Source: Terracidiphilus sp.
Lineage (GTDB): Bacteria; Acidobacteriota; Terriglobia; Terriglobales; Acidobacteriaceae
DNA length: 64,000 bases
Assembly: GCA_049522255.1 (NCBI GenBank)
Contig: JBEKOA010000001.1
Span: 4,216 to 68,215, forward strand
Reading direction: 5' to 3'
Within the stretch, counting starts at the first letter, position 1. Each line of letters starts with the position of its first letter. A program made the position numbers and the translations under genes. The notes under the pieces were generated by a model, which was not told where the DNA came from, did not search any database, and saw nothing but the letters and a program-made list of their open reading frames with translations. Positions 12,112 through 27,192 of the stretch are shown here, piece after piece.

Positions 12112-13395
12112 TCAATCTCCCGCTGATTCTGTGTCATATGCAAGAACAGCCTCAGGGGTCTTCCCTTGACGAGTATTGCGATAGCTGAAAACCTGAGCAC
12201 GGCTCAGGGCAGCGGCTGTCCAGGTGAACTTCCAGTGCACGCCAAACTCCAGCAGTAACGCTACGCTGCCGAGCATCAGTCCGGCAAAACACATCAGGCC
12301 GGTCCCATAGCTTCCGAAGATGTCCTTGAGAGCGCCAAGAGCCGACGGAAGAAAGAATCCTCCCAGGCCGCCCGCTGCGCCAACAATGCCGGTGATCAGT
12401 TCAATGTCTGCCGGGAATCGTTGCGGCGCCATCTGAAAGACAGCTCCATTGCCCATACCCAGCATCCCCATGGAGACAAAGAGCATGGGCACCACGACCA
12501 CAATGGGCGGAAGACCACTGACAACCATGAGACAAACTGATATGCAGGCAAAGAGCGCGAGAAGCAATCTGTAACCTCCAATTCTATCGGCAAGCCATCC
12601 TCCGACAGGGCGCAGAAAACTTCCAGAGAGAACAACGATCGTGGTGAAGTCACCTGCCTGCACCTTAGTCAGGTGGTACTGATCGTGAAAGAAGACTGAG
12701 AGAAAGCTTGCCAAGCCCACAAAACCGCCGAATGTGAGGCTATAGAGGAAGCAGAGCCGCCATGTATCGCCCTGCCCAAGCAGTTGTGCGTATTGTCCCA
12801 AGGTTTTTGGTTTTGATTTCGTCGGACTGTTTTTGGCCAGGATCGAAAAGGCTGCTAGCACGAGCAAAACTGGAAGCAGTGCCAGCCCGAAGACAAAATG
12901 CCAACCAAAATGCTGCGCCAGTCGCGGTCCAAAGAAAGTTGCCAGAAGCGTCCCCGAGTTGCCTGCGCCTGCGATGCCCATGGCCAGTCCCTGATGCTCG
13001 GCGGGATACCATCGGCCCGCAAGGGGAAGTGCGACGGCGAAGCTTGCGCCAGCAATGCCCAGCAAGAATCCAATTGCATAGAACTGCCATAGCGCAGTGG
13101 CATAGTGCCAGCCAAGTACGAGGGGAACCAGCGTAAGTGTGAGACCAGTGAGACCAGCACGGCGGCCGCCGATGCGGTCGGCGAGTAACCCAAGAATGGG
13201 CCGGAAAAAAGAACCGCCCAGCAGTGGAATGGCGGTAAGCAATCCCTTTTGAGTTGCGGTCAAATGCATTTGATCAGCAATGAAAGGGGTCATGGGTCCA
13301 AAGAGAACCCACACCATAAAGCTGACGTCGAAGTAGAGAAATGCGGAAACAAGCGTGGGCAAGTGGCCGCTGGAAGCGAAAGATTTCTTGTCCAT
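12112..13395 (-). CDS. narK: NarK/NRT2-family nitrate/nitrite MFS transporter
   Basis: GSFFRPILG, GIAGASFAV, GAGNSG, TFGGFVG, GSFLRPVGGWLADR, GMGNGAVFQ nitrate signatures. Confidence 0.9.
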   Translation of the reverse strand: MDKKSFASSGHLPTLVSAFLYFDVSFMVWVLFGPMTPFIADQMHLTATQKGLLTAIPLLGGSFFRPILGLLADRIGGRRAGLTGLTLTLVPLVLGWHYATALWQFYAIGFLLGIAGASFAVALPLAGRWYPAEHQGLAMGIAGAGNSGTLLATFFGPRLAQHFGWHFVFGLALLPVLLVLAAFSILAKNSPTKSKPKTLGQYAQLLGQGDTWRLCFLYSLTFGGFVGLASFLSVFFHDQYHLTKVQAGDFTTIVVLSGSFLRPVGGWLADRIGGYRLLLALFACISVCLMVVSGLPPIVVVVPMLFVSMGMLGMGNGAVFQMAPQRFPADIELITGIVGAAGGLGGFFLPSALGALKDIFGSYGTGLMCFAGLMLGSVALLLEFGVHWKFTWTAAALSRAQVFSYRNTRQGKTPEAVLAYDTESAGD

Positions 13396-13436
13396 GTGCG
13401 ATCCTCCTGGGGCATTGATTTTGCGAATGAACTAGG

Positions 13437-15650
13437 TTATGAAGTCGGCGCTGCTTTGATGGGAGTGCGTTCGACGCGCACTGCGCATTGCTTGAAGTTG
13501 GGTTCGCGCGAAATGGGATCGAACGCGCTTTGCGTAATCTGATTGGCGTTGCTCTCGACAAAGTGAAAAGGAAGAAAGACCTGTCCTGGAGCAACGATCT
13601 CGGTAATGCGCAACTCAACCTTGCTGACCCGGCCACGCGCAGAGAGCACATCCACGCGATCGTGGGGACGCAAGCCCAGACGCTTCGCGTCCACCGGATT
13701 CATCTCCAGCCATGCGCGCGGAGAAAGGCGCTGCAAAATGTCGATGCCTCCGGTCTTGGTGCGGGTATGCCAGTGTTCTACGGTGCGCCCGGTATTGAGC
13801 ACAAAGGGATATTCTTTGTTGGGTTGCTCTGGAAAAGGAGCCCAGACGGTGGGAATCAGCCTGGCGCGTCCGTCTTCGGTCTGATACTGGCCATCGGTGT
13901 ATAGTCGCCGCGGCACAGTCGGGTCCAAAAAGGCTCCTTGCGGGTAGGGCCACTGGATTCCACCGTTGGACTCGATGGCATCGTAAGTCATGCCGGAGTA
14001 GTCGCAGAGCCTTCCTGCCGAGACGCGGCGCCACTCTTCAAATGCGTCGGTAGGCGTATTCCAGCCGGGGAATAGCTCTTCGCGGCAACCCAATCGTTCG
14101 GCGACAGCAAGAAAGATTTCGAAGTCGCTGCGTGCCTCGGCGGGTGGAGCGACAGCGGCATTGGCTTTGCTGGCGCGGCGTTCTGAGTTGGTGTAGGTCC
14201 CTTCTTTTTCTCCCCAAATGGCAGCAGGCAATACAAGATTGGCTAACTCGGTGGTGGGGGTTGGATGAAATCCATCCTGCACCACAAGAAAGTCCAGATT
14301 ACTCAGCGCATGTTTAAGTACATCGATATTTGGAAAGGAGACCAGGGGATTGGTGCCAATGATCCATAGCGCGCGAATCCTTCCCGCGACAGCAGCTTCG
14401 ATAATGTCAGGATAAGCAAGGCCACGTTGGGTGGGAATGCGCTCGATGGGAATGTTCCATAGGCGAGCCAGTTCTTTGCGGTCCACTTCAGATTCAAATT
14501 TCCGATACCCTGGGAGACCCGAAGCAAAGCCAGCCTCACGAGTGCCCATGGCGTTGCATTGTCCAGTGATGGAGAAAGGCGAAGCCCCGGCGCGCCCGAT
14601 GTTACCAGTAATCAGGGCAAGGTTGTTGATGGCATTAACGGTCTCGGTGCCCTTGGTGCTGTGATTCACCCCCATCGTCCATCCGATGAATGCAGCCTTG
14701 GCATTGCCGTAAAGTAGTGCCGTCCTATGAATCAGTTCCGGCGTGAGACCTGTGATCTTGGCTGCATGCTCCAGCGTGCAGGATTCGAGTGACGCGCGCA
14801 ATTCTTCAAATCCCGTAGTGTAATGCTCGACATATTGCTTGTCATAGAGATCCTCGTTGATGATGATGCGTAGCATGGCATTGATAAGTGCGAGGTCCGA
14901 TCGCGGCTTCAGGGGGAGATATACATCGGCCATCATCGCCGTTTTGGTAACGCGCGGATCGGCCACTATCATCGTTTTGCCGCGATTGCCTTCCAGGCGC
15001 GTACAGAGAATCGGATGATTCTCCGCAACATTGGCTCCGATGAGCAGAATGACATCCGCGGTCTCCAGATCGGCATAGGCGCCGGGCGGTCCATCGCTTC
15101 CAAAAGAACGCTTGTAGCCGGAGACTGCGGTGGACATACAAAGCGTGGTGTTACCGTCATAGTTGCGCGTGCCCAATCCCAGTTGCACCAGCTTGCCCAG
15201 CGCATAGAACTCTTCCGTAAGCAACTGGCCGGTACTGATGACGCCAACCGAATCAGGGCCATATTTGATTTGCGCGGCGCGAAAGCGCTCCACCATAGTT
15301 TCCACCGCTTCGTCCCAACCAACGCGTACTAGCTCATTGTTTTTTCGCAGCAACGGATACCTGGCGCGATCCTTAGCCTCGATTGTGTAGTGCTCTGACA
15401 AGCCTTTTGGACAAAGCTTGCCAAGGTTGACCGGGTGATCGCGATCCCCGCGAACGCTGACAACTTTTCCCTTGCTTACACCTAACTCCATTCCGCAACC
15501 TACAGAGCAGTATCCGCAGGTGCTTTTCACCCACGTTTCCGCATGTTTGCGGGTCGAGGTGAAGCCGAGCACCGGGTCAATCCCGTAACTGTATTTAGCG
15601 GAGAGGTTGTCCAGCCCGCTTTTGCGTAATACCCAGTCCAGCACACTCAT
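13437..15650 (-). CDS. nasA: Cytoplasmic Mo-bisPGD nitrate reductase catalytic subunit (NasA/NarB-type)
   Basis: CGYCSVGC..LCPKG [4Fe-4S]; NTTLCM Mo-Cys; GQCNAMGTRE; EKEGTYTNSERR; ATGA overlap with the upstream gene fixes the start at 15650; no Tat motif. Confidence 0.88.
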   Translation of the reverse strand: MSVLDWVLRKSGLDNLSAKYSYGIDPVLGFTSTRKHAETWVKSTCGYCSVGCGMELGVSKGKVVSVRGDRDHPVNLGKLCPKGLSEHYTIEAKDRARYPLLRKNNELVRVGWDEAVETMVERFRAAQIKYGPDSVGVISTGQLLTEEFYALGKLVQLGLGTRNYDGNTTLCMSTAVSGYKRSFGSDGPPGAYADLETADVILLIGANVAENHPILCTRLEGNRGKTMIVADPRVTKTAMMADVYLPLKPRSDLALINAMLRIIINEDLYDKQYVEHYTTGFEELRASLESCTLEHAAKITGLTPELIHRTALLYGNAKAAFIGWTMGVNHSTKGTETVNAINNLALITGNIGRAGASPFSITGQCNAMGTREAGFASGLPGYRKFESEVDRKELARLWNIPIERIPTQRGLAYPDIIEAAVAGRIRALWIIGTNPLVSFPNIDVLKHALSNLDFLVVQDGFHPTPTTELANLVLPAAIWGEKEGTYTNSERRASKANAAVAPPAEARSDFEIFLAVAERLGCREELFPGWNTPTDAFEEWRRVSAGRLCDYSGMTYDAIESNGGIQWPYPQGAFLDPTVPRRLYTDGQYQTEDGRARLIPTVWAPFPEQPNKEYPFVLNTGRTVEHWHTRTKTGGIDILQRLSPRAWLEMNPVDAKRLGLRPHDRVDVLSARGRVSKVELRITEIVAPGQVFLPFHFVESNANQITQSAFDPISREPNFKQCAVRVERTPIKAAPTS

Positions 15651-17284
15651 GCAGACTCCATGGAGAGATATTCGGTTGCAATGTTGCTGGGAACGACACT
15701 GACAAAGAAGAGATAGCGGCTCACGAATTCGCCGGCAATCAGAAGAAGTGCAACGGGAACAGCCATCCACCGAGTCTGCGCAAAAGGTACAAGCAACAGG
15801 CCCGCGCTGAGCAAAAGGAGGCGCAGCATCAAGAGATTCGAGAGTACGGTGAAAAGCAGGATGAAGACTCCGCGACGCTCATGCGCAGAGGAGCGGGCCA
15901 GCCAAACCATTTTCATGCCGGCGGCAAGAATCGTCGCGATACCGGTAACGATTACCGCCCGTTGCGTAAACGTGGCTGTTCCACTGAGAATGTTGGCGCC
16001 CGCAGAGCCGAGCAGCATGGCGGTCAGAAAGAACTCCACAATAGTGAATGGGGAGTTCCACCCTGGGCGTCCCGGCGCCAAATACAATCGTGCGCTGCAG
16101 CCGACGCCGGCTATGCCAAAGATGACAGTCAATCCACCTAAGACTGTAACTGTATGAGCAGGCAGCATCGCATTGATCTCGCGAAGAAGCAGAACGAGAG
16201 AGGTAGTGAGTTTTTGGAAGACGGCCATGTGTCTAAGATCGAAGCCACCGGGCAAGGTGATCCACAGCGCCGCGGAATACGCAGCCGCGGCGTTGGCAAA
16301 GAGAGTAAACATCAAGACTTCCCGGCTGAGCCATGATCGACGCCACATCTTCAAAGCGCGCACGGCATGAATCGGTCGCCCCAGATGCAGCGTTGAGGCT
16401 CCGAGCGCTACGGTTGCGATCATCAGCGCAACGAGTGCAGCCACGCAGTGCAGGTGAGCACCAAAGATCTGCATCAGCCATATGGAAGAAAATGCGCCTA
16501 CCGAAAGCTGTGTCAGAACGGTCATTACCACCAGCGGCCAATGAGCATGCTCGGGACGAAGACGGTTGAGATCCACTTTGGCGGAATCGCGTGGCATGCG
16601 ATTGGGCAGGGTGATACGCGTTGTGGATAGACTGTCGTCTGCCGAGGGCATCCCTGGCGCGTTTGCGTCGGTGCGATATTGTTCACGCCATTCCGCAGTG
16701 CGCACAATTTCAATGCGAATGGCGCCTTCCGGACAGGCAGAGACGCAGGCTGGATTTTGCCCCTCGGTCAGACGCCCGTAGCACATATCGCATTTACCGA
16801 CGACGCCGCGCTCCGGGTTGTACTGGGGCACGCCGTAAGAACAGTTCCAGGTGCAATATTGGCAACCAATGCAGATATCCGCGTTGTGGCGCACGATTCC
16901 AGTGGGGCCGTCTTTTGAGTAAGCGTCGACCGGGCAGCCCGTCATGCAAGTCGGCTCCAGACAGTGATTGCAGCCGATAGAGAGATAGTTGCGCTGGGTA
17001 TCCGGATAAGTGCCGCCTTCGATTTCGCCGACCCGCCGCCACAGAATGTCGGCAGGATTTCCGTTCTGCTCGTTGCAAGCCACCACGCAACACTTGCAGC
17101 CGATGCACTTGGTCATGTCGAAATGAAAACGATATTGTTCGCCCGGTCCCGGTGGAGGCGGAAGAGGAACATCGACTCCGCTGCCGCACAACTGAACCAA
17201 CCCCTGCCCGGAATTTTGGGCAGAGGTCGTCAGGTTGAAGGCATCGTCGCCGGCCTTGACCCGTTCGAGTAAGGGAAGTTCCAT
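15647..17284 (-). CDS. Fused 4x[4Fe-4S] DmsB/NrfC-type subunit and DmsC/YnfH membrane anchor
   Basis: CIGCKCCVVAC, CNHC..TC..GCP, CIGCQYCTWNC, CDMC..PACVSACP, then ~8 TM with HWPLV.MTVLTQ and S.LHLGRP..A.RA...WRRSWLSRE; GGAG RBS before ATG 17284. Confidence 0.85.
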   Translation of the reverse strand: MELPLLERVKAGDDAFNLTTSAQNSGQGLVQLCGSGVDVPLPPPPGPGEQYRFHFDMTKCIGCKCCVVACNEQNGNPADILWRRVGEIEGGTYPDTQRNYLSIGCNHCLEPTCMTGCPVDAYSKDGPTGIVRHNADICIGCQYCTWNCSYGVPQYNPERGVVGKCDMCYGRLTEGQNPACVSACPEGAIRIEIVRTAEWREQYRTDANAPGMPSADDSLSTTRITLPNRMPRDSAKVDLNRLRPEHAHWPLVVMTVLTQLSVGAFSSIWLMQIFGAHLHCVAALVALMIATVALGASTLHLGRPIHAVRALKMWRRSWLSREVLMFTLFANAAAAYSAALWITLPGGFDLRHMAVFQKLTTSLVLLLREINAMLPAHTVTVLGGLTVIFGIAGVGCSARLYLAPGRPGWNSPFTIVEFFLTAMLLGSAGANILSGTATFTQRAVIVTGIATILAAGMKMVWLARSSAHERRGVFILLFTVLSNLLMLRLLLLSAGLLLVPFAQTRWMAVPVALLLIAGEFVSRYLFFVSVVPSNIATEYLSMESA

Positions 17285-17931
17285 CGATAGCTCCATCGTG
17301 TGCGGCACGCGCAATGTGCGAAGAGGACTGGTGTCAGGGACACGCCGCCCTCGACCGATGACGGTTGCTCTCAGACGTTCGAGCCCCTGTAATTTGTTGG
17401 TGGTTTGGCGATCAGGCCAGGCTCTTCGCGGAGCCAACTGGAAATCACTTCAGCTTGGGGAAGCATCCGGCACACTGGGCCAGACCTTCGCGGTGTGAGC
17501 TCTCTCAAAAGAGTCTCATTCCGCGTGGAGTGATTGCGTTGAGCATAGCGTCAAATAAGAATCAATGCAAGTAGATTCTGGTTTTGAACAATCTGTGCAG
17601 AAATCTCATTCAATATGCGTGGAAAAGCACCTTCCACTCTTGTATTCCCGATTGGATGCGTGTTAAAGCGAAGTCGGAGAGTTTCCCCATTCACCTTGCC
17701 CCGGGCATTCTTCGGGAGGTGATGATTGGGTCATTGCTTCTCTTCAGGCTTCTATCGAGTGTGACCAACGGACTATGTTTTTGCCGATCTTTAATCATGC
17801 GATACTGGAGTTGAAGATTGCTTCGAGTCCGCTGGATTCATGCGGAAATGGAGCGACGCAACTTTGCGCTGCCCGCTCTTCGTATCTTCCATCTGTGTCC
17901 ATTTCTTCTAACCCAGCACACGGAGAGACCC

Positions 17932-19611
17932 ATGCCAGGGGCGAATTTTGAAGGTCTACGGGTTCTGAGTCTGGAAGCACGCCGCGCGAATGAAGTTGCC
18001 AAGCTGATTCACACCTATGGTGGCGAGCCGCTTACGGCGCCGGCGATGCGGGAGATTCCTCTCGAAGAAAATCATCCGGTGATTGAATTCGCTCAGGCCC
18101 TGATGCGGGGAGCCTATGATCTGGTGATCTTCACAACCGGGGTGGGCGTCCGTTCTCTGGTCAAGATCGTCTCCGAGCGTCTGGATCGCGAGCAGTTTCT
18201 TGCTGCCCTGCGCGGCGTGAAGATTGCCGCCCGCGGTCCCAAGTCCTCCAGCGCGTTGCGGGAGTTGCAGATCCCCATCACGGTAGTTTCTCCAGAGCCA
18301 TTCACGTGGCGTGCTCTGATGCCGGCGCTTGAAGAGAAGCTGGGCCCAGAGATGGATGGCATGAACATCGCCGTGCAGGAGTACGGAACATCAAATCCAG
18401 AGTTGCTGACAGCGCTGGCAGAGAAGAGCATTTCAATTACCCGTCTTCTTGTCTATCAATGGGCATTGCCGGAAGACATTCAGCCCTTACGTGAAGCCGT
18501 GCTTGCTCTTGCGCATGGACACGTCGATATCGTGCTCTTCATGAATGCCGGGCAGGTCATGCATCTGTTTCTCATGGCCGAACGCATGGGCTACACAGAG
18601 GCGCTGCATGAAGGACTCCGCTCTACGCTGATCGCTTCGATTGGTCCCAGCACGACCGAAGGAATGTCTGCCTACGGACTGCACCCAGATTTTGAGCCAA
18701 CGCAATCGAAGATGGGCTTCCTGATCAACGAGCTGGCGCAACATGGGCGGTCTCTTTTGAATAAAAAACGCTCCGATGCAGCGTTACATGTTACCAGCAC
18801 TCCACCACCTCCCGTCAGTCCGCTGCTGCAGAGCGGCGCCCAGCCTATTGCAACGGTAGAGCCTGCCATCCCCTCGCCAGTCGATTTTCTGCACGAGATA
18901 GGCAGCCGCATGGCAGCCTCAGACCCGCTGCACACGGTGCTTGATCGCATAGTTGACTTTGCCTGTACAGTCATCAACTGCGATTCTTGTTTTGTCTACG
19001 TGCTGGAAGACAATCAGCTGGTTTTGCGCGCATCCAAAACCCCCCATGCGGATCTGGTGGACCATCTGGGAATCTGGCTTGGCCAAGGCATTACCGGGTG
19101 GGTTGGATGGCATCGCGAGCCGGTTGCGATCTCAGCGAATGCACTGCAGGATCCACGCTTCAAGCGCTTTCCAAATGTGCCGGAAGATGCGTTTGAGGCG
19201 TTTCTTTCCGTTCCAATTCTTTGTCGCGGGAAGCTGGTCGGAGTCATTAATTTGCAGCATCGCAGGCCCTATCAGCATGCAGAAAATGAAGTCCGGCTGC
19301 TGACGACGATCGGCCATCTGGTGGGCGCGGAGTTGGAGCGGGCGCGCCTGGAAACCGAAAACGTCCAACTCTCAGATCGCCTGGAATCGCGCAAACACAT
19401 TGAACGCGCCAAGGGAGTATTGCAGCGCGATTTCGCCCTGGATGAAGAGGCTGCCTACAAGGCCATGCAGCGGGAGAGCCGTCAGCGTCGCAAATCGATG
19501 CGCGAGATTGCCGAGGCAATTATTCTCAACGAAGATCTGCGCAAGAGCCGTTTGGGAGAAGCAAATAGACCGGCAGCGCATGAAGATGGTATAAGGAAAG
19601 CCAAGAATTGA
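17932..19611 (+). CDS. HemD(uroporphyrinogen-III synthase)-like, GAF and ANTAR three-domain fusion
   Basis: N-terminal HemD pattern (IFTTGVGV, ARGPK, VQEYG, SIGPST); GAF (DSCFVYV..LVLRAS..GITGWV..AFLSVPI..GVINL); ANTAR (RKHIERAKGVL..EEAAY..MQRESR); GGAG RBS. Confidence 0.88.
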   Translation: MPGANFEGLRVLSLEARRANEVAKLIHTYGGEPLTAPAMREIPLEENHPVIEFAQALMRGAYDLVIFTTGVGVRSLVKIVSERLDREQFLAALRGVKIAARGPKSSSALRELQIPITVVSPEPFTWRALMPALEEKLGPEMDGMNIAVQEYGTSNPELLTALAEKSISITRLLVYQWALPEDIQPLREAVLALAHGHVDIVLFMNAGQVMHLFLMAERMGYTEALHEGLRSTLIASIGPSTTEGMSAYGLHPDFEPTQSKMGFLINELAQHGRSLLNKKRSDAALHVTSTPPPPVSPLLQSGAQPIATVEPAIPSPVDFLHEIGSRMAASDPLHTVLDRIVDFACTVINCDSCFVYVLEDNQLVLRASKTPHADLVDHLGIWLGQGITGWVGWHREPVAISANALQDPRFKRFPNVPEDAFEAFLSVPILCRGKLVGVINLQHRRPYQHAENEVRLLTTIGHLVGAELERARLETENVQLSDRLESRKHIERAKGVLQRDFALDEEAAYKAMQRESRQRRKSMREIAEAIILNEDLRKSRLGEANRPAAHEDGIRKAKN

Positions 19612-19622
19612 TCGCAACTTGC

Positions 19623-19718
19623 TTGTGATCTCTATCGAGTTGCGCTAGTCTAACCCTAAGAGTGAGACAAGGCTGTCTCCTCGGGTTCTCTCTTCCCCGC
19701 ACCACGCCGTGCCTGGGG
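19623..19718 (+). promoter_or_regulatory. Putative sigma70 promoter and candidate ANTAR-type tandem hairpins in the nirA leader
   Basis: TTGTGA-N17-TAGTCT (19623-19651); GAGAC-AAGGCT-GTCTC (19664-19679); GCAC-CACGCC-GTGC (19699-19712). Confidence 0.5.
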
Positions 19719-19886
19719 CCTTCAGACCACAATCCCTTTACTCCATGCTCCGTGATGAGCCTTGAATTCTCCGCATTGTTTGCGGCATTCATCGGGTCTC
19801 AACGCCGCTTTGCGCACGCGCACACAAGCGCTTTCAACGGGCAGTCCGGTCCTCCTCATGGATGGACTACTGGAAGGAGTGATGGC

Positions 19887-21665
19887 ATGGAAACGCTGGA
19901 TACCCTCAATTCCCAGGATTTCACGGCAGTACAGAAGGAGTATCTTCTCGGCATCTTTTCGACTGCCACGCATCATGGCTTGCGTCCTTTCGCGGGCCAC
20001 ACCGCGACCGGGCTGCTGACCAACGATTCAACTCTTGGCTCGATCAATCTGGCGGAACCGCAAGAGGAGACCTACCACGGAACGCCAGTCTCCGATCTCT
20101 GCCGCGAAGAGCGATGGAAGTATGAGCAGAATCCTCTTGATATCTGGGACAAGCTGCTGGCTCATGCAGATGAAAATCGAACACCGGCAGCGGATGATCT
20201 TTTCCGCTTCAAATTTCACGGGCTATTTTACGTAGCTCCCGCGCAGGACTCCTTCATGCTCAGGCTGCGCGTCCCAGGCGGCATTCTTACCGCTCACCAA
20301 ATGCGCGGCCTGGCGGCGATGGCCTCCGATTGGGGATCGGGCCGCGTGGACATTACGACCCGTGCCAACCTGCAGATTCGCGAATTCCAGCCGAAAGAAA
20401 TTGTTCGCGTGCTCAACAAGCTGCAATCGCTTGGGCTTACCTCGCGCGGTTCAGGCGCAGACAATATTCGTAACATCACGGCTTCGCCGATCACCGGACT
20501 CGATCCCACTGAACTCTGCGATGTGGCGCCGCTGGCCGATGCGCTTCACCATTACATTCTGAATAGCCGCGATCTGTATGGGTTGCCGCGCAAATTCAAC
20601 GTAGCCTTCGACAATGGAGGCGCCATCAGCGTCGTTGCCGATACCAACGATATTGGCTTTGTTGCTGTCCGCGTTGGTGAAGGGCGCAGCCTTCCCACGG
20701 GCGTTTATTTTCGAGTATTGTTGTGCGGCATTACTGGGCACAAACAGTTCGCTACCGATTGCGGCTTGCTGTTACGCGCCGATCAGACCGTGGCTGTTGC
20801 CGCTGCCATGATACGTGTCTTCAGCGAGAACGGCGACCGAACGGATCGCAAAAAAGCGCGCCTGAAATACCTGGTGGATCGCTGGGGCGTCGACAAGTTT
20901 CTGGATGAGACTGAAATGCGTTTGTCCTTCCCGCTGATCCGCGTTCCGATCAATGAGTGCGAGCCGCGCCTGCCGATTGATCGCGCCGGCCACATCGGTG
21001 TTCACGCGCAACGTCAAGACGATCTGCACTATATTGGGATCTCCGTGCCGGTTGGCCGTCTTCCTGCCGCGCAGATGCTGGCCCTGGCTGACATAGCCAG
21101 CAGTTACGGCAGCGGGGAGTTGCGACTCACGGTCTGGCAGAACCTGTTGATCCCAAACATTCCAACCGCTCATCTGGATGCGACGTTGGCTGCGCTTCAA
21201 GCTGTCGGTCTTGATTGCACGGCAGGGACTGTTCTGCGAGGCACTGTTGCCTGCACAGGAAATCGCGGCTGCAAGTATGCATCGACCGACACCAAGACAC
21301 ACGCGGTTGAATTGGCCAGTCTGCTTGATGCACGATTCAAGATTGAACAGCCGGTCAATCTTCATGTGACCGGTTGTCCCCACTCCTGCGCACAACATTA
21401 CATCGGCGATATCGGCCTGCTCGGCATGAAGGTTGGCGGCGCCGAAGGCTATCAAGTGGTAATCGGTGGAGGCTCGGATCTGGACAAAGGCCTGGCGCGC
21501 GAGCTAATCCCTGCTATCGCCTATAGTGATTTGCCCCCCATGATGGAACGGCTCTTTGCCGCCTATATCGAACAGCGGAAGAGAGATGAGTCCTTCCTGG
21601 ATTTCAGCCGTAGACACAGCACTGCGGAGTTGCAATCGTTTTGCGCGGCAAAGGAGCGGAGATAG
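19887..21665 (+). CDS. nirA: Siroheme-[4Fe-4S] nitrite reductase, NirA family
   Basis: FKFHGLF, MLRLRVPGG, ITTRANLQIR, GADNIRN, LPRKFN, ACTG..GC, TGCPHSCAQH; GAAGGAG RBS. Confidence 0.88.
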   Translation: METLDTLNSQDFTAVQKEYLLGIFSTATHHGLRPFAGHTATGLLTNDSTLGSINLAEPQEETYHGTPVSDLCREERWKYEQNPLDIWDKLLAHADENRTPAADDLFRFKFHGLFYVAPAQDSFMLRLRVPGGILTAHQMRGLAAMASDWGSGRVDITTRANLQIREFQPKEIVRVLNKLQSLGLTSRGSGADNIRNITASPITGLDPTELCDVAPLADALHHYILNSRDLYGLPRKFNVAFDNGGAISVVADTNDIGFVAVRVGEGRSLPTGVYFRVLLCGITGHKQFATDCGLLLRADQTVAVAAAMIRVFSENGDRTDRKKARLKYLVDRWGVDKFLDETEMRLSFPLIRVPINECEPRLPIDRAGHIGVHAQRQDDLHYIGISVPVGRLPAAQMLALADIASSYGSGELRLTVWQNLLIPNIPTAHLDATLAALQAVGLDCTAGTVLRGTVACTGNRGCKYASTDTKTHAVELASLLDARFKIEQPVNLHVTGCPHSCAQHYIGDIGLLGMKVGGAEGYQVVIGGGSDLDKGLARELIPAIAYSDLPPMMERLFAAYIEQRKRDESFLDFSRRHSTAELQSFCAAKERR

Positions 21666-21667
21666 CT

Positions 21668-23440
21668 ATGTCCACCAACCCTCCCTATATTCCCGATAAT
21701 GCTCCCTTCACACCAGAACAGCGAGCGTGGCTCAACGGCTTTCTTGCCGGACTGTTTGCAGGCGATGGTCAGCAGGCTGCCGCTGCGGAGTCCAAACCAT
21801 CGCATCGCATTGCGATTCTTTATGCCTCGCAATCCGGCACTGCCGAAGGGCTGGCGCGCAGGCTGGCCAAGGAACTTAAGGCTCAGGGCCATCAGCCAGT
21901 GGTCTCAACATTGGTCGGCTATTCGCCGGCCGCGCTGGCGTCGGAGAAATATGCACTGATCTTTGCCAGCACTTATGGCGATGGTGAAGCTCCCGATGGC
22001 GTTCAGCCATTTTTTGAAGAACTCTGTCTTGAGCACTTTCCTCGCTTCGAGGGATTGTCTTACTCCGTCTTCGCGCTCGGAGATCGCCACTACGAAAACT
22101 TCTGCAAGTTTGGCAACGATCTTGACAGCAAACTGGCTGCATTGGGTGCCAATCGCCTGGCCAATCGTGTCGATTGCGATGTGGATGTCGATGAGCCGTT
22201 AGTGCAATGGAAAGCGGAAGTTCTTCCGCGGCTTAATGAATCGGCGCCAGCACTCAAGCTTTCAAGGGCCGCTTCAACCGCCGTGGCAGTGGCGGAAAGG
22301 CCAGCGCCAAATGCCTCGTTTACGCGCGATAATCCGGTCTTTGCTCCGCTGATTCACAAAAAAGATCTTACGCACAAGACCTCCAGCAAGACGACACTTC
22401 ATCTGGCATTCTCCATTGAGGGAACGGGTATTCAGTATGAATCCGGCGACGCCTGCGGTGTTCTGCCCGCAAACGATTGCAACCTGGTCGCCGAGATCCT
22501 GCAAGCTCTACGCTTCAACGGCAACGAGCGGGTTCAATGCGGTAAGGCAGAAACCATTCCTCTTCACAATGCGTTAACTCACCATCTGCAAATCACCCGC
22601 CTGAATCGCAAGATGGTCACTGAATATGCAAACCTGGGCAAGTGCGCGCTGCTCTCTTCGCTGCTGGAACCCAGGCAGCAGCCGGAACTGGACAGATACC
22701 TCTACGGCCGAGGACTGATTGACCTGTTGATCGAGTATCCTGGCGTGGTGCAGAGCCCGGAAGAACTTGTGGCAATGCTGCCCAAACTTACGCCGCGTCT
22801 CTATTCCATATCCTCCAGCCCCATTGCTCATGCCGGGCAAATTCATACCACAGTGGCCGTGGTGCGCTACAGCGCGCACAACCGTGAGCGCGGAGGAGTG
22901 TGCTCGACGCTCTTTGCCGATCGCGCTTCCGTCTCTGACCGTTTGCCTCTTTACATTCAACCGAACAAGCGGTTCAAATTGCCAAATGATTCCGACGCCC
23001 CCATGATCATGATTGGACCCGGCACGGGCATTGCGCCGTTCCGTGGCTTTCTGCACGAGCGCCGCGCACTGGGGGCCAAGGGAAAAAACTGGCTCTTCTT
23101 TGGTGAGCGCAGCGCAACAACCGATTACCTTTATCGGGACGAGTTGGAGGCCATGCAGGCCGATGGGCATCTGACCCGCTTGGATACTGCTTTCTCGCGC
23201 GATCAGGAAGATAAGATCTACGTGCAGGATCGTATGCTGGAGCAGGCTCCGTTGTTTTGGAGTTGGTTGCAGGATGGGGCTAGTGTTTACGTCTGCGGTG
23301 ACGCGTCACGAATGGCGAAGGATGTGCATGGAGCCTTGCAAACCATTGTTCAAACGCAAGGGGGAATGCCGGCGATTGCTGCGGAGGAATATGTGGAAAC
23401 CCTGAAAGAGCAGCATCGCTACCATCGGGATGTGTACTGA
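21668..23440 (+). CDS. CysJ-like diflavin (FMN/FAD/NADPH) reductase
   Basis: YASQSGTAE, STYGDGEAP, ALGD..Y..FC, PRLYSISSS, MIGPGTGIAPFRGF, YVQD, YVCGDA, YHRDVY. Confidence 0.9.
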   Translation: MSTNPPYIPDNAPFTPEQRAWLNGFLAGLFAGDGQQAAAAESKPSHRIAILYASQSGTAEGLARRLAKELKAQGHQPVVSTLVGYSPAALASEKYALIFASTYGDGEAPDGVQPFFEELCLEHFPRFEGLSYSVFALGDRHYENFCKFGNDLDSKLAALGANRLANRVDCDVDVDEPLVQWKAEVLPRLNESAPALKLSRAASTAVAVAERPAPNASFTRDNPVFAPLIHKKDLTHKTSSKTTLHLAFSIEGTGIQYESGDACGVLPANDCNLVAEILQALRFNGNERVQCGKAETIPLHNALTHHLQITRLNRKMVTEYANLGKCALLSSLLEPRQQPELDRYLYGRGLIDLLIEYPGVVQSPEELVAMLPKLTPRLYSISSSPIAHAGQIHTTVAVVRYSAHNRERGGVCSTLFADRASVSDRLPLYIQPNKRFKLPNDSDAPMIMIGPGTGIAPFRGFLHERRALGAKGKNWLFFGERSATTDYLYRDELEAMQADGHLTRLDTAFSRDQEDKIYVQDRMLEQAPLFWSWLQDGASVYVCGDASRMAKDVHGALQTIVQTQGGMPAIAAEEYVETLKEQHRYHRDVY

Positions 23441-23500
23441 GCCGCAATGGCATCTTTCTTGTATCTGTCATTCCTATTAAAATCAAAACCGGGATGCAGG

Positions 23501-24004
23501 ATGAGAGTCTGCAAGCTATACATTTCGCCAGGGCATAATTTCTTTGGCCACCACGAACAGCCGCCCGGAGAGTATCCGCTGATCGAGTGTGCGGAGCTCC
23601 GTTGTATGGCCGGTCGCGGAGTTGAAGGAGACCGCTTCTTCGACTACAAGGACAACTACAAGGGACAGATCACTTTCTTCTCTTCCGAGGTCTTCGAGGA
23701 ACTCTGTAATCTTCTCGGCGTGCACGACAAGTCTCCGGGGGCAACCCGTCGCAACGTCATCACCGCTGGAGTGGATCTGAATTCCCTGATCGAAAGAGAG
23801 TTTGACGTACAAGGCGTGCGTTTTTCAGGTGTAGCTGAGTGCAGCCCCTGTTATTGGATGGACAAAGCCATCGCACCCGGCGCCGAGGAATTCCTGAAAG
23901 GCCGGGGTGGGTTGCGCGCGCGGATTCTAACGGATGGGGTCCTCGTAGTCGAAGATGAAATTCTCTATCGCCATTCTGCAGATTCTCAGTGTCCCCTACT
24001 TTAA
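23501..24004 (+). CDS. MOSC-domain molybdoprotein (YiiM/mARC-like)
   Basis: GRGVEGDRF, QITFF, TRRNVI..GVDLN, CSPC, GRGGLRARIL..G. Confidence 0.85.
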   Translation: MRVCKLYISPGHNFFGHHEQPPGEYPLIECAELRCMAGRGVEGDRFFDYKDNYKGQITFFSSEVFEELCNLLGVHDKSPGATRRNVITAGVDLNSLIEREFDVQGVRFSGVAECSPCYWMDKAIAPGAEEFLKGRGGLRARILTDGVLVVEDEILYRHSADSQCPLL

Positions 24005-24212: not shown

Positions 24213-24380
24213 GAAAGGAGATTGACTGCCGATTTAGACTTGGTGAGTGCGTCCTTCCAGTCGTGTCCTGTTGAGGCACACCGGCCGTTAGGCCTGATAC
24301 AGTTGCCCTTGTGTTGCTTTGTCGGGAGATCTGAACCGCAAGAAGGCTTACACATCAAGTTCTCCCCAGGGGGCGTGTCC

Positions 24381-25616
24381 ATGTCGTTTCGTTCTGTGTT
24401 TGTGGCCGTCGTCATTGCGTTTGCTCTCATACTTTCCGCCTTCCTTGTCAATCGAGCCCGCCCCAAGGTAGAGACCGACCAGCCTACCGCCGACTTTGTT
24501 CGCGCGTCCGGCAAGTGTGCCGAGTGCCATGCCCGGCTTCAATACTCCGTCGTTCACGAATACGAGATGTCCGTACATGCGAAGAAAGGCGTGAATTGCC
24601 TGGACTGTCACGAACCCGGCCCCGGCCAGCAGAAGGTGGATCACCACGGCTTCGTGATCAGTACTCACTTGACGGCAGGCAACTGCCGCTCCTGTCACGA
24701 AGGCATCTATCAGGAGTTTCTGCGCAGCCGTCACGCCGCGCCCAGTTGGGCGGCCGTGCATGGCGAAGCGGGATTGAGTGCGGAGCAGGTTGCCTTCAGC
24801 GAGCAGTTCCAGCCCGGGGGAACGAAGCGTCCGCCCAACCCACTTACGGTTCCTGAGGGGCATCCAGCAATCACTTCGGGTTGCGAACAGTGCCACGCCA
24901 TTGGCAAGCCGAACGACGACGGCACGATTGGCAGTTGCACCGAATGCCACTCGCGCCACAGCAACTCTGTTGCTCTCGCCCGCCTGCCCACCACCTGCGG
25001 CCAGTGCCATATGGGGCCCGACCACTCCCAGGTTGAGATCTATAACGAGTCAAAGCACGGCGTGATGTTCGCCGCCCAAAGCAACCTTCTTCGGCTCGAC
25101 GCCGATCCTCGCACGTTGACGACTCGCGACATGTTCGTGCCAACCTGCGCGACCTGCCATATGAGCGGCATCAACGGCCTGAAGGTTACTCACAATCCGT
25201 CCGATCGACTCGGCTGGTATCTCGCCGACGCTGTCACGACCCATCGTCCAAACTACCTTCAGGCCCAGATCAATATGAAGCAGGTCTGCACCCAATGCCA
25301 CACCCCGGCGCGTATCGACCGAGTCTACGACCAGGGTGAAGAGGTCATCAAGGGCACAAACGCCAAGGTTCTTGCCGCCAAGGACATCATGGATGGATTG
25401 CACAAAGACGGAACCCTGACGGGCCCTCCGTTTAGCCACCCGATTGACTTTACCTACTTCAATCTGTGGCACTACGACGGCCGCACCAGCAAGCACGGAG
25501 CCTTCATGGGAGGCGCCGACTTCGTCCAATGGCACGGCAATTACGAAATGCTGTCGAAGACCGTCGAACTTCAGCACGACGCCGACGAACTACGGAGAGA
25601 GCATGCTCACAAGTAA
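24381..25616 (+). CDS. Membrane-anchored octaheme c-type cytochrome, hydroxylamine-oxidoreductase (HAO) family, reductive type
   Basis: 8 CxxCH (CAECH, CLDCH, CRSCH, CEQCH, CTECH, CGQCH, CATCH, CTQCH); HMGPDHSQ.EIY.ESKHG and DGR..HGAFMGGADFVQWHG HAO signatures; N-terminal TM. Confidence 0.85.
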   Translation: MSFRSVFVAVVIAFALILSAFLVNRARPKVETDQPTADFVRASGKCAECHARLQYSVVHEYEMSVHAKKGVNCLDCHEPGPGQQKVDHHGFVISTHLTAGNCRSCHEGIYQEFLRSRHAAPSWAAVHGEAGLSAEQVAFSEQFQPGGTKRPPNPLTVPEGHPAITSGCEQCHAIGKPNDDGTIGSCTECHSRHSNSVALARLPTTCGQCHMGPDHSQVEIYNESKHGVMFAAQSNLLRLDADPRTLTTRDMFVPTCATCHMSGINGLKVTHNPSDRLGWYLADAVTTHRPNYLQAQINMKQVCTQCHTPARIDRVYDQGEEVIKGTNAKVLAAKDIMDGLHKDGTLTGPPFSHPIDFTYFNLWHYDGRTSKHGAFMGGADFVQWHGNYEMLSKTVELQHDADELRREHAHK

Positions 25617-27174: not shown

Positions 27175-27192
27175 CGGCGATTCTTCAATTGA

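What the first reader, a model, noticed from the sequence alone, without database searches (positions are those of the whole stretch)
17932..19611. HemD-GAF-ANTAR fusion: an NnaR-like nitrate regulator with an RNA-binding output
Seen in sequence: a HemD-like domain, a GAF domain and an ANTAR domain in one polypeptide, placed between the nitrate reductase operon (divergent) and the nirA operon (downstream). Established: the actinobacterial nitrate regulator NnaR pairs a HemD-like domain with an OmpR-type DNA-binding HTH, while NasR/NasT use ANTAR to antiterminate nitrate operons. Inference: this protein joins the two, with an NnaR-type sensor wired to an antiterminator, perhaps coupling tetrapyrrole (siroheme precursor) status or nitrate/nitrite to expression. 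I know of no characterised protein with this architecture.
Basis: partly seen in the sequence, partly recalled or inferred. Interest (0 to 1): 0.85.

Follow-up and report, generated by a model that had tools for sequence, protein, structure and literature searches.

The report
HemD-GAF-ANTAR regulator of nitrate assimilation
Soil and peat Acidobacteria carry a real, widespread but unstudied protein that joins a haem-precursor enzyme domain to a small-molecule sensor and an RNA-binding domain. It sits beside the nitrate and nitrite assimilation genes, whose mRNA leaders carry matching conserved hairpins, so it most likely controls those genes at the RNA level.

Summary
Window 17932-19611 (+) encodes a 559-aa HEM4(HemD)-GAF-ANTAR protein (REG), between a divergent nitrate-reductase/NarK operon and a downstream nirA operon. 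It is not an artefact: thousands of full-length homologues exist in Acidobacteriaceae, including cultured Edaphobacter and Granulicella, and independent peat metagenomes hold the locus.

The RNA-output idea gains support. Both flanking leaders carry the same strand-specific module about 140-150 nt before the start codon. P1 is a GC-rich hairpin with a covarying stem and an invariant loop G4. P2 lies about 32 nt downstream and is a near-invariant GCUC-CNNGAN-GAGC hexaloop hairpin. P2's 3' half can instead pair downstream. The ANTAR residues that read G4 in EutV are invariant in REG.

The "NnaR-type sensor" reading is not supported by descent. REG's HemD domain clusters with stand-alone HemD and HemD-HemE enzyme fusions (43-57% identity) and keeps their motifs. 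NnaR forms a separate clade (25-30%). This is a second, independent recruitment of HemD into nitrite-assimilation control. The GAF domain resembles the glutamine-binding GAF of PtsP. No canonical terminator was found, so the expression step is unresolved. No paper describes the architecture.

Verdict: new variant of a known kind, interest about 0.65.

The parts
17932..19611 (+). REG coding sequence, 559 aa: HemD-GAF-ANTAR
   Evidence: Homologues. AF2 model with mean pLDDT 80.
17992..18726 (+). HemD (HEM4) domain, residues 21-265. It keeps TTGVGVR (68-74), ARGPK (100-104), VYQW with Tyr175, and SIGPSTT (236-242).
   Evidence: Pfam. Alignment to Thermus thermophilus U3S 3D8N. Foldseek TM 0.86 to 1wcx. 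Invariant columns.
18787..18876 (+). Low-confidence, length-variable linker, residues about 286-315
   Evidence: pLDDT below 50. Variable region in alignment A2.
18928..19335 (+). GAF domain, residues 333-468, PtsP/EI-Ntr-like
   Evidence: Pfam. PDB profile hits 3e0y, 3ci6, 3trc. Foldseek TM 0.82-0.86.
19282..19524 (+). Long helix (residues 451-501) plus the ANTAR three-helix bundle (479-531). R487, K488, K494, E505 and Y509 are invariant. R517 replaces the Met 'plug' of EutV.
19623..19651 (+). Putative nirA promoter just after the REG stop codon: TTGTGA, 17 nt, TAGTCT
   Evidence: Conserved blocks in the 18-locus alignment. Not called by the consensus scan. A metatranscriptome contig begins at 19648.
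19664..19679 (+). H1 hairpin GAGAC-AAGGCU-GUCUC at the 5' end of the nirA leader (clade A only)
19695..19718 (+). nirA-leader P1: CCCCGCAC-CACGCC-GUGCcuGGGG. The hexaloop is 19703-19708, with G4 at 19706.
   Evidence: Covariation. Covariance-model hit 19697-19762 at 66.9 bits.
19747..19760 (+). nirA-leader P2: GCUC-CGUGAU-GAGC
19755..19834 (+). Alternative structure that uses the 3' half of P2. The core is GAGCC 19757-19761 paired with GGUCUC 19795-19800, enclosing the variable hairpin H4 (19771-19785).
19887..21665 (+). nirA (NirA-family sirohaem nitrite reductase). The true start is ATG 19887.
21641..24004 (+). CysJ-like flavoprotein (21641-23440) and MOSC protein (23447-24004), co-directional with nirA
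17542..17570 (-). Putative nas-operon promoter: TTGCAT (17570-17565), 17 nt, TATGCT (17547-17542)
   Evidence: Conserved in the 18-locus alignment. Sequence.
17467..17483 (-). nas-leader P1: CUGGC-CCAGUGU-GCCGG, with loop position 4 = G
17421..17434 (-). nas-leader P2: GCUC-CGCGAA-GAGC
   Evidence: Covariance-model hit 17419-17498 at 20.3 bits, E 0.0026.
17321..17426 (-). Alternative long-range helix in the nas leader: GCGAAGAG of P2 pairs with the conserved CUCUUCGC about 25 nt before the start codon.
12112..17296 (-). nas operon: DmsB/DmsC-like fusion (15647-17296), NasA/NasC-like molybdoenzyme without a Tat signal (13437-15650), and NarK (12112-13395)

Best explanation
REG is an ANTAR-type RNA-binding regulator of the two nitrate/nitrite-assimilation transcription units that flank it. 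Proposed mechanism: both units are transcribed from their own promoters into leaders of about 230 nt. Each leader carries P1, a GC-rich hairpin whose loop has an invariant G at position 4. About 32 nt downstream lies P2, GCUC-CNNGAN-GAGC. Left alone, the 3' half of P2 pairs with downstream sequence in a larger alternative hairpin (the OFF state). Active REG dimerises through its long GAF-ANTAR helix and binds the P1 and P2 hexaloops. It flips out G4 onto Tyr509 with Arg487, Lys494 and Glu505, as EutV does. This holds P2 closed and blocks the alternative helix, so nirA-cysJ and the nas operon are expressed. Two sensor modules set REG's activity. The first is a PtsP-like GAF domain that most likely reports nitrogen status (glutamine or a related metabolite). 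The second is an enzyme-like HemD domain that binds hydroxymethylbilane or uroporphyrinogen III, the precursor of NirA's sirohaem cofactor. The HemD domain may also convert that precursor. Shown here: the architecture, the conserved linkage with nirA/nas, the shared leader module with covariation and strand specificity, the mutually exclusive fold, and the conserved G4-reading residues. Inferred: that REG is the factor that binds the module, the sign of regulation, which step is controlled (termination, translation or stability), and both ligands.
For: Architecture: Pfam hits, an AF2 model with confident domains, and Foldseek matches to T. thermophilus U3S and the PtsP GAF. Linkage: REG lies next to nirA in 25 of 27 clade-A loci and 19 of 23 clade-B loci that have at least 2.5 kb on both flanks. 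The genes are co-directional in clade A and divergent in clade B, so the linkage survived a rearrangement. RNA module, P2: the pattern has exactly two exact hits in the 64-kb window, one in each leader and both in the sense orientation. It lies a median of about 140-147 nt upstream of the start codon in 51 nirA leaders and 30 nas leaders. RNA module, P1: the stem covaries, with 80.7% of cells paired, a covariation score of 0.301 against 0.154 for shuffles (0 of 500 shuffles reach it), and pair 5-18 as GC17/AU8/GU7/UA1. The nas-leader P1 also covaries (GGC/GCC to AGC/GCU), keeps G4, and has the same spacing of about 32 nt. Independent test: a covariance model built only from nirA leaders of other loci finds just the two leaders in the window (E 4e-14 and 0.0026). 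Switch: P2's 3' half pairs downstream in the minimum-free-energy fold of 32/49 nirA and 17/20 nas leaders, while P2 itself forms in only 9/49 and 3/20. Protein: the EutV residues that read G4 (R142, K149, E160, Y164) correspond to the invariant R487, K494, E505 and Y509. A single hexaloop is a sufficient ANTAR site (PMC8934654), so the 32-nt linker is tolerable. Expression: REG, the leader, nirA and cysJ all appear in a wetland metatranscriptome. Sensors: the PtsP GAF binds glutamine (PMC4848567). HemD paralogues sit in nirBD or sulfite-reductase/sirohaem operons of Deinococcus and Thermus.
Against: No binding or expression data exist. No U-tract follows the alternative hairpin in most loci (0-3 U in 8 nt), and the terminator scan finds nothing there. 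Classical antitermination is therefore not demonstrated. Loop position 1 is C or Y rather than the canonical A. The conserved Met 'plug', which is essential in EutV, is Arg517 here. The P2 stem never varies, so its pairing is inferred from complementarity alone. A sub-branch of clade A (L048, L049, L051, L102, L025) keeps P1 but has no recognisable P2 in the nirA leader. REG is intact in Granulicella aggregans without adjacent nas/nir genes, and in L036 where the cluster is decayed. This hints at a role beyond this locus. The ligands of both sensor domains are guesses.
Confidence: 0.6

Rival explanations
1. Trigger-enzyme reading. The HemD domain is a fully active uroporphyrinogen-III synthase, possibly the cell's main one. 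REG is primarily a tetrapyrrole enzyme that also binds RNA. The enzyme's substrate or product occupancy directly gates the ANTAR output, and the enzyme itself feeds sirohaem synthesis for NirA.
For: REG's HemD is 43-57% identical to stand-alone HemD and to HemD-HemE fusions, which must be enzymes, and groups with them at 100% bootstrap. All motifs shared with T. thermophilus U3S are invariant, including Tyr175. The HemD domain is as conserved as the ANTAR domain. Enzymatic HemD paralogues sit in nirBD and sirohaem operons of Deinococcus and Thermus. REG is retained intact where the nas/nir genes are absent or decayed.
Against: REG scores below the NCBIfam HemD equivalog cut-offs (141 against 233). 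The analogous NnaR HemD is reported to be inactive (PMC6277429, PMC11162112). Whether REG-bearing genomes have another hemD could not be tested, because the nearest HemD-HemE fusions come from Binataceae and not from Acidobacteria.
Confidence: 0.3
2. REG is a repressor. Binding to P1 and P2 blocks translation or destabilises the mRNA, as described for actinobacterial ANTAR RNAs, rather than activating expression.
For: No canonical terminator is present. In the nas leader, P2's alternative partner lies about 25 nt before the start codon. ANTAR-mediated translational repression is documented in mycobacteria (PMC8164766).
Against: P1 and P2 lie about 140 nt upstream of the start codon and do not overlap the ribosome-binding site, unlike the mycobacterial cases. 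All known nitrate-assimilation ANTAR regulators (NasR, NasT) are activators.
Confidence: 0.15
3. The leader hairpins are read by something else, such as another protein or a direct metabolite-sensing RNA. REG's real targets lie elsewhere in the genome.
For: REG occurs without adjacent nas/nir genes in some genomes. Split HemD + GAF-ANTAR gene pairs and paralogous GAF-ANTAR genes sit in unrelated contexts.
Against: The motif and REG co-occur across two gene orders. The loops keep exactly the base (G4) that the conserved ANTAR residues read. A paralogous GAF-ANTAR in L024 sits behind a gene whose leader carries the same GCUC-NNNGAN-GAGC hairpin plus a second hexaloop hairpin. No Rfam family matches the leaders.
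Confidence: 0.1
4. REG descends from an NnaR-type protein whose DNA-binding domain was swapped for GAF-ANTAR.
For: Both proteins have an N-terminal HEM4 domain and lie in nitrite-assimilation clusters. Both HemD domains score about 140-150 bits against NF004584.
Against: The tree gives an NnaR clade at 100% bootstrap, 25-30% identical to REG. REG instead nests with enzymatic and stand-alone HemD at 100% bootstrap. REG scores 117.7 against the NF005568 cut-off of 273. No HEM4+Trans_reg_C protein is among the best 150 representatives.
Confidence: 0.03
5. The fusion is an assembly, frameshift or read-through artefact.
For: None was found. Split hemD-like + GAF-ANTAR gene pairs do exist in other lineages (L106).
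Against: More than 2,700 clusters at 90% identity carry the same architecture in each of two searches. The architecture occurs in isolate genomes. Twenty-plus independent metagenomes hold the window sequence. A contig spans the whole gene.
Confidence: 0.01

Closest known systems
NasR (Klebsiella oxytoca, NIT-ANTAR) and NasS-NasT (Paracoccus, Pseudomonas, Azotobacter; REC-ANTAR)
   Same: They have an ANTAR output domain. They control nitrate/nitrite assimilation operons through hairpins with a hexaloop G4 in the mRNA leader. The bound hairpin is mutually exclusive with a downstream structure.
   Different: REG has no NIT domain and no NasS partner, so there is no evident nitrate sensor. Its sensors are HemD and GAF. 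Loop position 1 is C or Y, not A. The P1-P2 linker is about 32 nt. No U-tract terminator is present. The Met plug is replaced by Arg517.
EutV (Enterococcus faecalis), the structurally defined ANTAR-RNA complex (PMC8934654, PMC3369931)
   Same: The G4-contacting residues align with invariant REG residues: R142 with R487, K149 with K494, E160 with E505, and Y164 with Y509. A coiled-coil helix precedes the ANTAR domain. The RNA target has two hexaloops.
   Different: EutV is a phosphorylated response regulator. EutV M172, whose mutation abolishes binding, aligns with Arg517. R168 aligns with Gln513.
NnaR (Streptomyces, Mycobacterium; HemD + OmpR-type winged helix)
   Same: A HemD-fold domain is fused to a nucleic-acid-binding output. 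The gene lies inside a nitrite-reductase cluster. The role of the HemD domain is unknown.
   Different: NnaR's output binds DNA, not RNA, and it has no GAF domain. Its HemD is only 25-30% identical to REG's and forms a separate clade. NnaR is restricted to Actinomycetes. The S. coelicolor HemD is reported inactive, whereas REG's HemD is much closer to real enzymes.
Stand-alone HemD paralogues in nirBD operons (Deinococcus megaplasmids) and in a sulfite-reductase/sirohaem operon (Thermus oshimai)
   Same: They belong to the same broad HemD subfamily (30-37% identity) and are physically linked to a sirohaem-dependent reductase.
   Different: They have no regulatory domains and are presumably plain enzymes that supply sirohaem precursor.
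PtsP / EI-Ntr N-terminal GAF domain
   Same: It is the closest solved GAF (3ci6, 3trc; TM 0.82-0.86, 26-28% identity). It is a nitrogen-status sensor that binds glutamine (PMC4848567).
   Different: It is fused to a PEP-dependent phosphotransferase, not to ANTAR. Ligand-contact residues were not compared.
Uncharacterised acidobacterial GAF-ANTAR, REC-GAF-ANTAR and DUF4118-GAF-ANTAR proteins (P0131, P0130, P0127; L023, L024)
   Same: Their GAF-ANTAR module is 50-61% identical to REG's and has the same QRESRQRRKSM ANTAR signature. L024's neighbouring leader has a GCUC-CAAGAC-GAGC hairpin.
   Different: They have no HemD domain and lie in other gene contexts, such as next to a TonB-type outer-membrane protein or MFS transporters.

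Membership tests
ANTAR RNA-binding regulators (PF03861) | ANTAR domain above the Pfam gathering score, preceded by a coiled-coil helix | tested here: met
   59.9 bits against 27.3. Helix 451-501 in the AF2 model.
ANTAR RNA-binding regulators (PF03861) | Residues that contact the flipped-out G4 (EutV R142, K149, E160, Y164) | tested here: met
   They align with R487, K494, E505 and Y509, which are invariant in 65 sequences.
ANTAR RNA-binding regulators (PF03861) | Hydrophobic Met 'plug' (EutV M172; Met also in Rv1626, NasR and AmiR) | tested here: not met
   Invariant Arg517 at the aligned position. Paralogous acidobacterial GAF-ANTARs have R or Q there.
ANTAR target RNA (dual hexaloop motif) | Two stem-loops with hexanucleotide loops, G at position 4 | tested here: met
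   P1 and P2 are present in both leaders and G4 is invariant. In the nas leader the P1 loop is usually 7 nt.
ANTAR target RNA (dual hexaloop motif) | A at loop position 1; linker of 2-25 nt | tested here: not met
   Position 1 is C in nirA P1 and in both P2 hairpins, and Y in nas P1. The linker is 24-36 nt, mostly 32-33 nt (criteria from PMC8164766).
ANTAR target RNA (dual hexaloop motif) | P2 overlaps the 5' arm of an intrinsic terminator (stem followed by a U-tract) | tested here: inconclusive
   The overlap with an alternative hairpin is clear. A U-tract is absent in most loci, although L074 has UUUUU and some clade-A loci have UUU(U)G.
ANTAR regulators | Specific binding of the protein to the leader RNA and an effect on read-through | not testable with these tools
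   This needs EMSA or SPR, in vitro transcription and genetics.
NnaR (NCBIfam NF005568 / PRK07239) | HEM4 domain plus a C-terminal OmpR-type Trans_reg_C domain; score of at least 273 bits | tested here: not met
   REG scores 117.7 bits over the HemD part only and has no Trans_reg_C. A true NnaR (L118) scores 503 bits and has both domains.
NnaR | HemD domain within the NnaR clade | tested here: not met
   NJ tree with 200 bootstraps: NnaR forms a 100% clade at 25-30% identity to REG. REG groups with enzymatic and stand-alone HemD at 100%.
Uroporphyrinogen-III synthase (HemD, PF02602) | HEM4 fold and family signature | tested here: met
   Pfam 122 bits against 27.5. TM 0.86 to T. thermophilus U3S.
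Uroporphyrinogen-III synthase (HemD, PF02602) | NCBIfam equivalog cut-offs | tested here: not met
   The best is NF004584 at 141 bits against 233. The HemD-HemE enzyme P0133 also scores only 145, so this test does not discriminate.
Uroporphyrinogen-III synthase (HemD, PF02602) | Conserved active-site or cleft motifs, including the Tyr implicated in catalysis (residue role recalled from my own knowledge of Schubert et al. 2008) | tested here: met
   TTGVGVR, ARGxK, the Tyr in (V/P)Y(Q/R), FxxAxQV and xGxxT all align with T. thermophilus U3S and are invariant in the family.
Uroporphyrinogen-III synthase (HemD, PF02602) | Catalytic activity (hydroxymethylbilane to uroporphyrinogen III) | not testable with these tools
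   This needs hemD complementation or an enzyme assay.
GAF (PF01590), PtsP-like | GAF fold; nearest solved relatives are PtsP GAF domains | tested here: met
   Pfam 64 bits. 3ci6 and 3trc at E 1e-20 and 1e-17. TM 0.82-0.86. Ligand not tested.

The most novel reading that the evidence does not exclude
REG is a 'trigger enzyme': a catalytically active uroporphyrinogen-III synthase whose substrate or product occupancy, together with a glutamine-type signal at the GAF domain, directly switches an RNA-binding ANTAR domain. Synthesis of the sirohaem enzyme NirA, and of the nitrate reductase that feeds it, would then be licensed by flux through the sirohaem-precursor branch point. Actinomycetes would have reached the same logic independently with NnaR, which would explain NnaR's enigmatic HemD domain.
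Probability: 0.3. Interest if true: 0.85.

Novelty: new variant of a known kind. Interest (0 to 1): 0.65.

Why it matters
Acidobacteriaceae are among the most abundant bacteria in acidic soils and peat, yet nothing is known about how they regulate nitrate assimilation. This family has thousands of members, including members in cultured Edaphobacter and Granulicella, and all are mis-named 'uroporphyrinogen-III synthase'. It offers four things.

1. A candidate master regulator for nitrate and nitrite assimilation in this group.
2. A variant ANTAR recognition code: C/Y at loop position 1, G at position 4, an Arg in place of the Met plug, and a linker of about 32 nt. Current ANTAR-RNA searches would miss this code.
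3. Independent evolutionary evidence that a HemD fold is useful as a control module for sirohaem-dependent nitrite reduction. [quoted passage not shown] This makes the long-open question of what NnaR's HemD domain does directly testable in a second system.
4. A correction to routine annotation.

Tried and rejected
- **Rfam.** Rfam has no match, either at gathering scores over the whole window or at E<=1 over 17250-19900.
- **RNAalifold long-range pairing.** RNAalifold proposed that the P1 loop CAUGCC pairs with the nirA start region GGCAUG. I rejected this. Loop variants are not compensated: the window itself has a C.A mismatch and L017 has two mismatches. Clade-B leaders also lack the complementarity.
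- **H1 and H4 as ANTAR sites.** H1 is absent in clade B. H4 has a variable loop length and carries large insertions.
- **Canonical terminator.** The scan finds none in either leader. U counts after the alternative hairpin are low.
- **Sigma-70 consensus scan.** It does not call the conserved -35/-10-like blocks. They are inferred from conservation only.
- **P2 as a DNA operator.** I rejected this because the asymmetric loop is always in the sense orientation of the downstream gene on both strands.
- **The covariance model's P1 in the nas leader.** The model aligned P1 to CACAC...GUGUG with a 17-nt loop. That helix is not conserved in other loci. The conserved nas P1 is CYGGC-loop-GCCGG.
- **A second hemD in REG-bearing genomes.** I hoped to show one through the HemD-HemE fusions, but these come from Candidatus Binataceae, so the question stays open.
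- **Metatranscriptome contigs.** They show that the locus is expressed, but coverage is too low (depth about 2) to map 5' ends or attenuation.
- **Literature.** Searches for ANTAR + uroporphyrinogen/HemD/GAF and for ANTAR + Acidobacteria found nothing relevant.
Full report
**1. The observation**

The window has about 57% G+C. The ORF at 17932-19611 (+) begins at an ATG behind GGAGAG and encodes 559 aa. Pfam finds HEM4 at residues 21-265 (E 2e-35), GAF at 333-468 (E 2e-17) and ANTAR at 479-531 (E 2e-16), all far above the curated cut-offs.

Divergent from it on the minus strand lie three genes:
- a DmsB-like 4Fe-4S + DmsC-like fusion;
- a NasA/NasC-like molybdoenzyme without a Tat signal;
- a NarK transporter.

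Downstream on the plus strand lie a NirA-family nitrite reductase (NF007126, 807 bits against a cut-off of 523), a CysJ-like flavoprotein and a MOSC protein. The nirA gene starts at ATG 19887 rather than the mechanically listed GTG 19662. This leaves a 275-nt spacer after the REG stop codon.

**2. The fusion is real**

A search of 5.8 billion proteins returned 2,714 clusters at E<=1e-5. All of the best 120 have the three domains, at 78-93% identity. They are named only 'uroporphyrinogen-III synthase' and come from Terracidiphilus and other Acidobacteriota MAGs. A second search, seeded with a 59%-identical member, found 2,847 more clusters. These include proteins of the isolates Granulicella aggregans and Edaphobacter acidisoli. 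More than twenty peat, wetland and soil metagenomes hold the window's sequence. One independent contig spans the whole gene. A wetland metatranscriptome has contigs on REG, the nirA leader, nirA and cysJ.

**3. Family structure and context**

At 50% clustering there is only one other full-length representative among the best 150 hits of 1.84 billion proteins. The family is therefore large but phylogenetically narrow. I fetched 116 loci from genome and metagenome collections. Three groups emerge.

- **Clade A** (at least 68% identity; includes the window). REG is followed co-directionally by nirA-cysJ and faces the nas operon. 25 of 27 loci with at least 2.5 kb on both flanks have nirA.
- **Clade B** (51-62% identity; Edaphobacter, Granulicella). 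A single nirA-cysJ-FeS/DmsC-Mo-NarK operon lies divergent from REG. 19 of 23 loci with at least 2.5 kb on both flanks have nirA.
- **A third group** at 48-49% identity. In at least L106 (and apparently L105) the hemD-like and GAF-ANTAR parts are separate adjacent genes away from nas/nir (L106); in L109 the ORF listing shows a single 523-aa ORF next to NarK, not scanned against Pfam.

The linkage thus survived a change of gene order. The exceptions are informative. G. aggregans keeps REG without neighbouring nas/nir genes. In L036 the cluster is broken by an IS element and frameshifts while REG stays intact.

**4. The RNA evidence**

I aligned 300 nt upstream of nirA and of the nas operon. Each shows a conserved -35/-10-like pair: TTGTGA-17-TAGTCT at 19623-19651, and TTGCAT-17-TATGCT at 17570-17542 on the minus strand. 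Conserved hairpins follow each promoter.

*P2.* One element is shared by both leaders: the 14-nt hairpin GCUC-CNNGAN-GAGC, which I call P2.
- The pattern has exactly two exact matches in the 64-kb window, at 19747-19760 (+) and 17421-17434 (-). Each lies in the sense orientation of the gene downstream.
- Across all loci it sits a median of about 140-147 nt before the start codon, in 51 nirA leaders and 30 nas leaders.
- Near-variants cover most of the remaining loci.

*P1.* Upstream of P2 lies a second hairpin, P1.
- In nirA leaders, P1 is xCAC-C(A)NGNN-GUGx, 24-36 nt (mostly 33 nt) upstream of P2. In the window it is 19695-19718, with loop CACGCC.
- In nas leaders, P1 is CYGGC-YNNGNN(N)-GCCGG, mostly 32 nt upstream of P2. 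In the window it is 17467-17483.
- Loop position 4 is G in every case.
- The nirA P1 stem covaries. 80.7% of cells are paired. The covariation score is 0.301 against 0.154 for shuffles, and 0 of 500 shuffles reach it. Slid controls score no more than 0.159. One pair shows GC17/AU8/GU7/UA1 with no unpaired cell.

*Independent test.* A covariance model built only from nirA leaders of other loci finds just two significant hits in the window. They are the nirA leader (66.9 bits, E 4e-14) and the nas leader on the opposite strand (20.3 bits, E 0.0026).

*Other families.* No Rfam family matches.

**5. A switch, but not a textbook terminator**

In minimum-free-energy folds, the 3' half of P2 (the 3' part of the loop plus GAGCC) pairs with downstream sequence in 32/49 nirA leaders and 17/20 nas leaders. 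P2 itself forms in only 9/49 and 3/20.
- In nirA leaders the partner is GGYCUC. It closes a large hairpin around a variable inner stem-loop, H4, whose stem covaries and whose loop varies in length.
- In nas leaders the partner is the conserved CUCUUCGC, about 25 nt before the start codon.

This is the arrangement expected for ANTAR control, in which P2 is mutually exclusive with a downstream structure (PMC3369931). However, only a minority of loci have a U-tract after the alternative hairpin. Whether the regulated step is intrinsic or Rho-dependent termination, translation or stability remains open.

**6. The ANTAR domain fits the RNA**

In the EutV-RNA structure, G4 flips out onto Tyr164 and is read by Arg142, Lys149 and Glu160. 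A single hexaloop is a sufficient binding site (PMC8934654).
- By alignment, these residues are Arg487, Lys494, Glu505 and Tyr509 of REG. All are invariant in 65 family members. This matches the invariant G4 of P1 and P2.
- The deviations also match. EutV Met172 is essential for binding and is also Met in Rv1626, NasR and AmiR. In REG it is an invariant Arg517. Loop position 1 is C or Y instead of the canonical A.
- Paralogous acidobacterial GAF-ANTAR proteins share this signature. One of them (L024) follows a gene whose leader carries GCUC-CAAGAC-GAGC plus a second hexaloop hairpin.

**7. The HemD domain is enzyme-like and not NnaR-derived**

The best non-family relatives are stand-alone HemD proteins (44-57% identity) and HemD-HemE (uroporphyrinogen decarboxylase) fusions (43-49%). 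The fusions come from Candidatus Binataceae.

REG shares with these proteins and with T. thermophilus U3S the motifs TTGVGVR, ARGPK, (V)YQW with Tyr175, FMxAxQV and SIGPxTT. All are invariant in the family. The AF2 model (pLDDT about 90 in this domain) superposes on T. thermophilus U3S with TM 0.86.

I obtained true NnaR sequences from actinobacterial replicons. The mycobacterial one has HEM4 + Trans_reg_C, scores 503 bits on NF005568, and sits in a nirB-nirD-narK-nnaR-sirB cluster. In an NJ tree with 200 bootstraps:
- NnaR forms a 100%-supported clade that is 25-30% identical to REG;
- REG nests with 100% support among stand-alone or split HemD and HemD-HemE fusions;
- the Deinococcus nirBD-linked HemD is the next branch (83%).

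REG is therefore a second, independent fusion of a HemD fold to a nucleic-acid-binding output in a nitrite-assimilation cluster. HemD paralogues of this subfamily also sit, unfused, in Deinococcus nirB-nirD-hemD operons and in a Thermus sulfite-reductase/sirohaem operon. The recurring theme is the sirohaem cofactor. Published work calls the NnaR HemD domain inactive and of unknown role (PMC6277429, PMC11162112). REG's HemD is far closer to working enzymes, so catalytic activity cannot be excluded.

**8. The GAF domain**

The nearest solved structures are a Geobacter GAF (3e0y) and the N-terminal GAF domains of PtsP/EI-Ntr (3ci6, 3trc; E 1e-17 to 1e-22, TM 0.82-0.86). The PtsP GAF binds glutamine and reports nitrogen status (PMC4848567). 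No NIT domain or NasS-like protein is present in the window. Nitrogen status is therefore a more plausible input than nitrate itself. This is inference only.

**9. Conclusion**

REG is best read as an ANTAR-family RNA-binding regulator of the flanking nirA and nas units. It has a variant recognition code and an unprecedented HemD + GAF sensor pair (confidence about 0.6). The main open alternative is that the HemD domain is catalytically active, which would make REG a trigger enzyme (about 0.3). This alternative is compatible with the RNA role. Descent from NnaR and an assembly artefact are both rejected. No paper in the searchable library describes the architecture. I rate it a new variant of a known kind.

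Noticed in passing
window 13437-17296 (-): The assimilatory-type NasA/NasC-like molybdoenzyme has no twin-arginine signal, and its true start is about 15650. It is preceded by, and overlaps by 4 nt, a fusion of a DmsB-like 4Fe-4S protein with a DmsC-like membrane anchor. This is an unusual electron-donor partner for an assimilatory nitrate reductase.
   Followed up: partly
window 19887-24004 (+): NirA is followed by a CysJ-like flavodoxin-FAD-NAD(P) protein and a MOSC protein. This suggests a CysJI-style NAD(P)H-dependent nitrite reductase rather than a ferredoxin-dependent one.
   Followed up: no
window 24222-27974 (+): A multihaem cytochrome c (24222-25616), an unknown 367-aa ORF, a hemerythrin (26632-27174) and an ScdA_N+hemerythrin RIC/YtfE-like protein (27255-27974) follow the nirA operon. 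This may be a nitrosative-stress module.
   Followed up: no
L106 3977-4870 and 5057-5785: A split form: a hemD-like gene (297 aa) and a GAF-ANTAR gene (242 aa) are adjacent but separate, with no nas/nir genes nearby. The partnership is therefore older than the fusion, or the fusion can break apart.
   Followed up: partly
L029-L031 (for example L030 4251-5195): A stand-alone HemD-like protein (296-314 aa) has the clade-B N-terminus MAHASFNGLRVLSLESRRAKEV. It nests inside the REG clade in the tree (95.5% bootstrap, sister to clade B) and lies among glycosyltransferase and acyltransferase genes. It looks like a REG that lost GAF-ANTAR.
   Followed up: partly
L024 3134-3200 and 6818-7678: A paralogous GAF-ANTAR gene follows a TonB-dependent-type outer-membrane protein. 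That protein's leader has GCUC-CAAGAC-GAGC and, 19 nt later, GGAAC-AGAGAC-GUUCC. This looks like a second regulon that uses the same hairpin type.
   Followed up: partly
L036 3900-9600; L032 10001-11701: In L036, REG is intact while the adjacent nir/nas cluster is fragmented by an IS element. In Granulicella aggregans, REG has no adjacent nas/nir genes at all. This hints at a function beyond the local cluster.
   Followed up: partly
L006 8748-11214; L009 5252-6739; L034 8256-9731; L109 2357-3991: An Alginate_exp-family outer-membrane porin is repeatedly inserted next to REG. In L006 it comes with an FNT formate/nitrite channel. It may be an anion porin for nitrate or nitrite.
   Followed up: no
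window 19703-19708, 19741-19749 and 19884-19892: In clade A only, both the P1 loop (CAUGCC consensus) and the sequence just 5' of P2 (UCCAUGC) are complementary to the nirA start region GGCAUGGA. This is not conserved in clade B and is not compensated where it varies.
   Followed up: yes
window 17619-17647 (+): A terminator-like hairpin GTGGAAAAGCACCTTCCAC followed by TCTTGTATTC lies upstream of REG on its own strand, inside the divergent intergenic region. Its meaning is unknown.
   Followed up: no
L117 6992-7828; L125 2992-3825; L123 2977-3741: Deinococcus megaplasmids carry nirB-nirD-hemD operons in which hemD overlaps nirD. Thermus oshimai has a nitrite/sulfite reductase-hemD-sirohaem operon. 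So HemD paralogues dedicated to sirohaem enzymes are a recurrent theme.
   Followed up: partly
window 4768-6306 (-): A CYTH-CHAD protein (512 aa) lies among dehydrogenase genes. It is unrelated to the finding.
   Followed up: no
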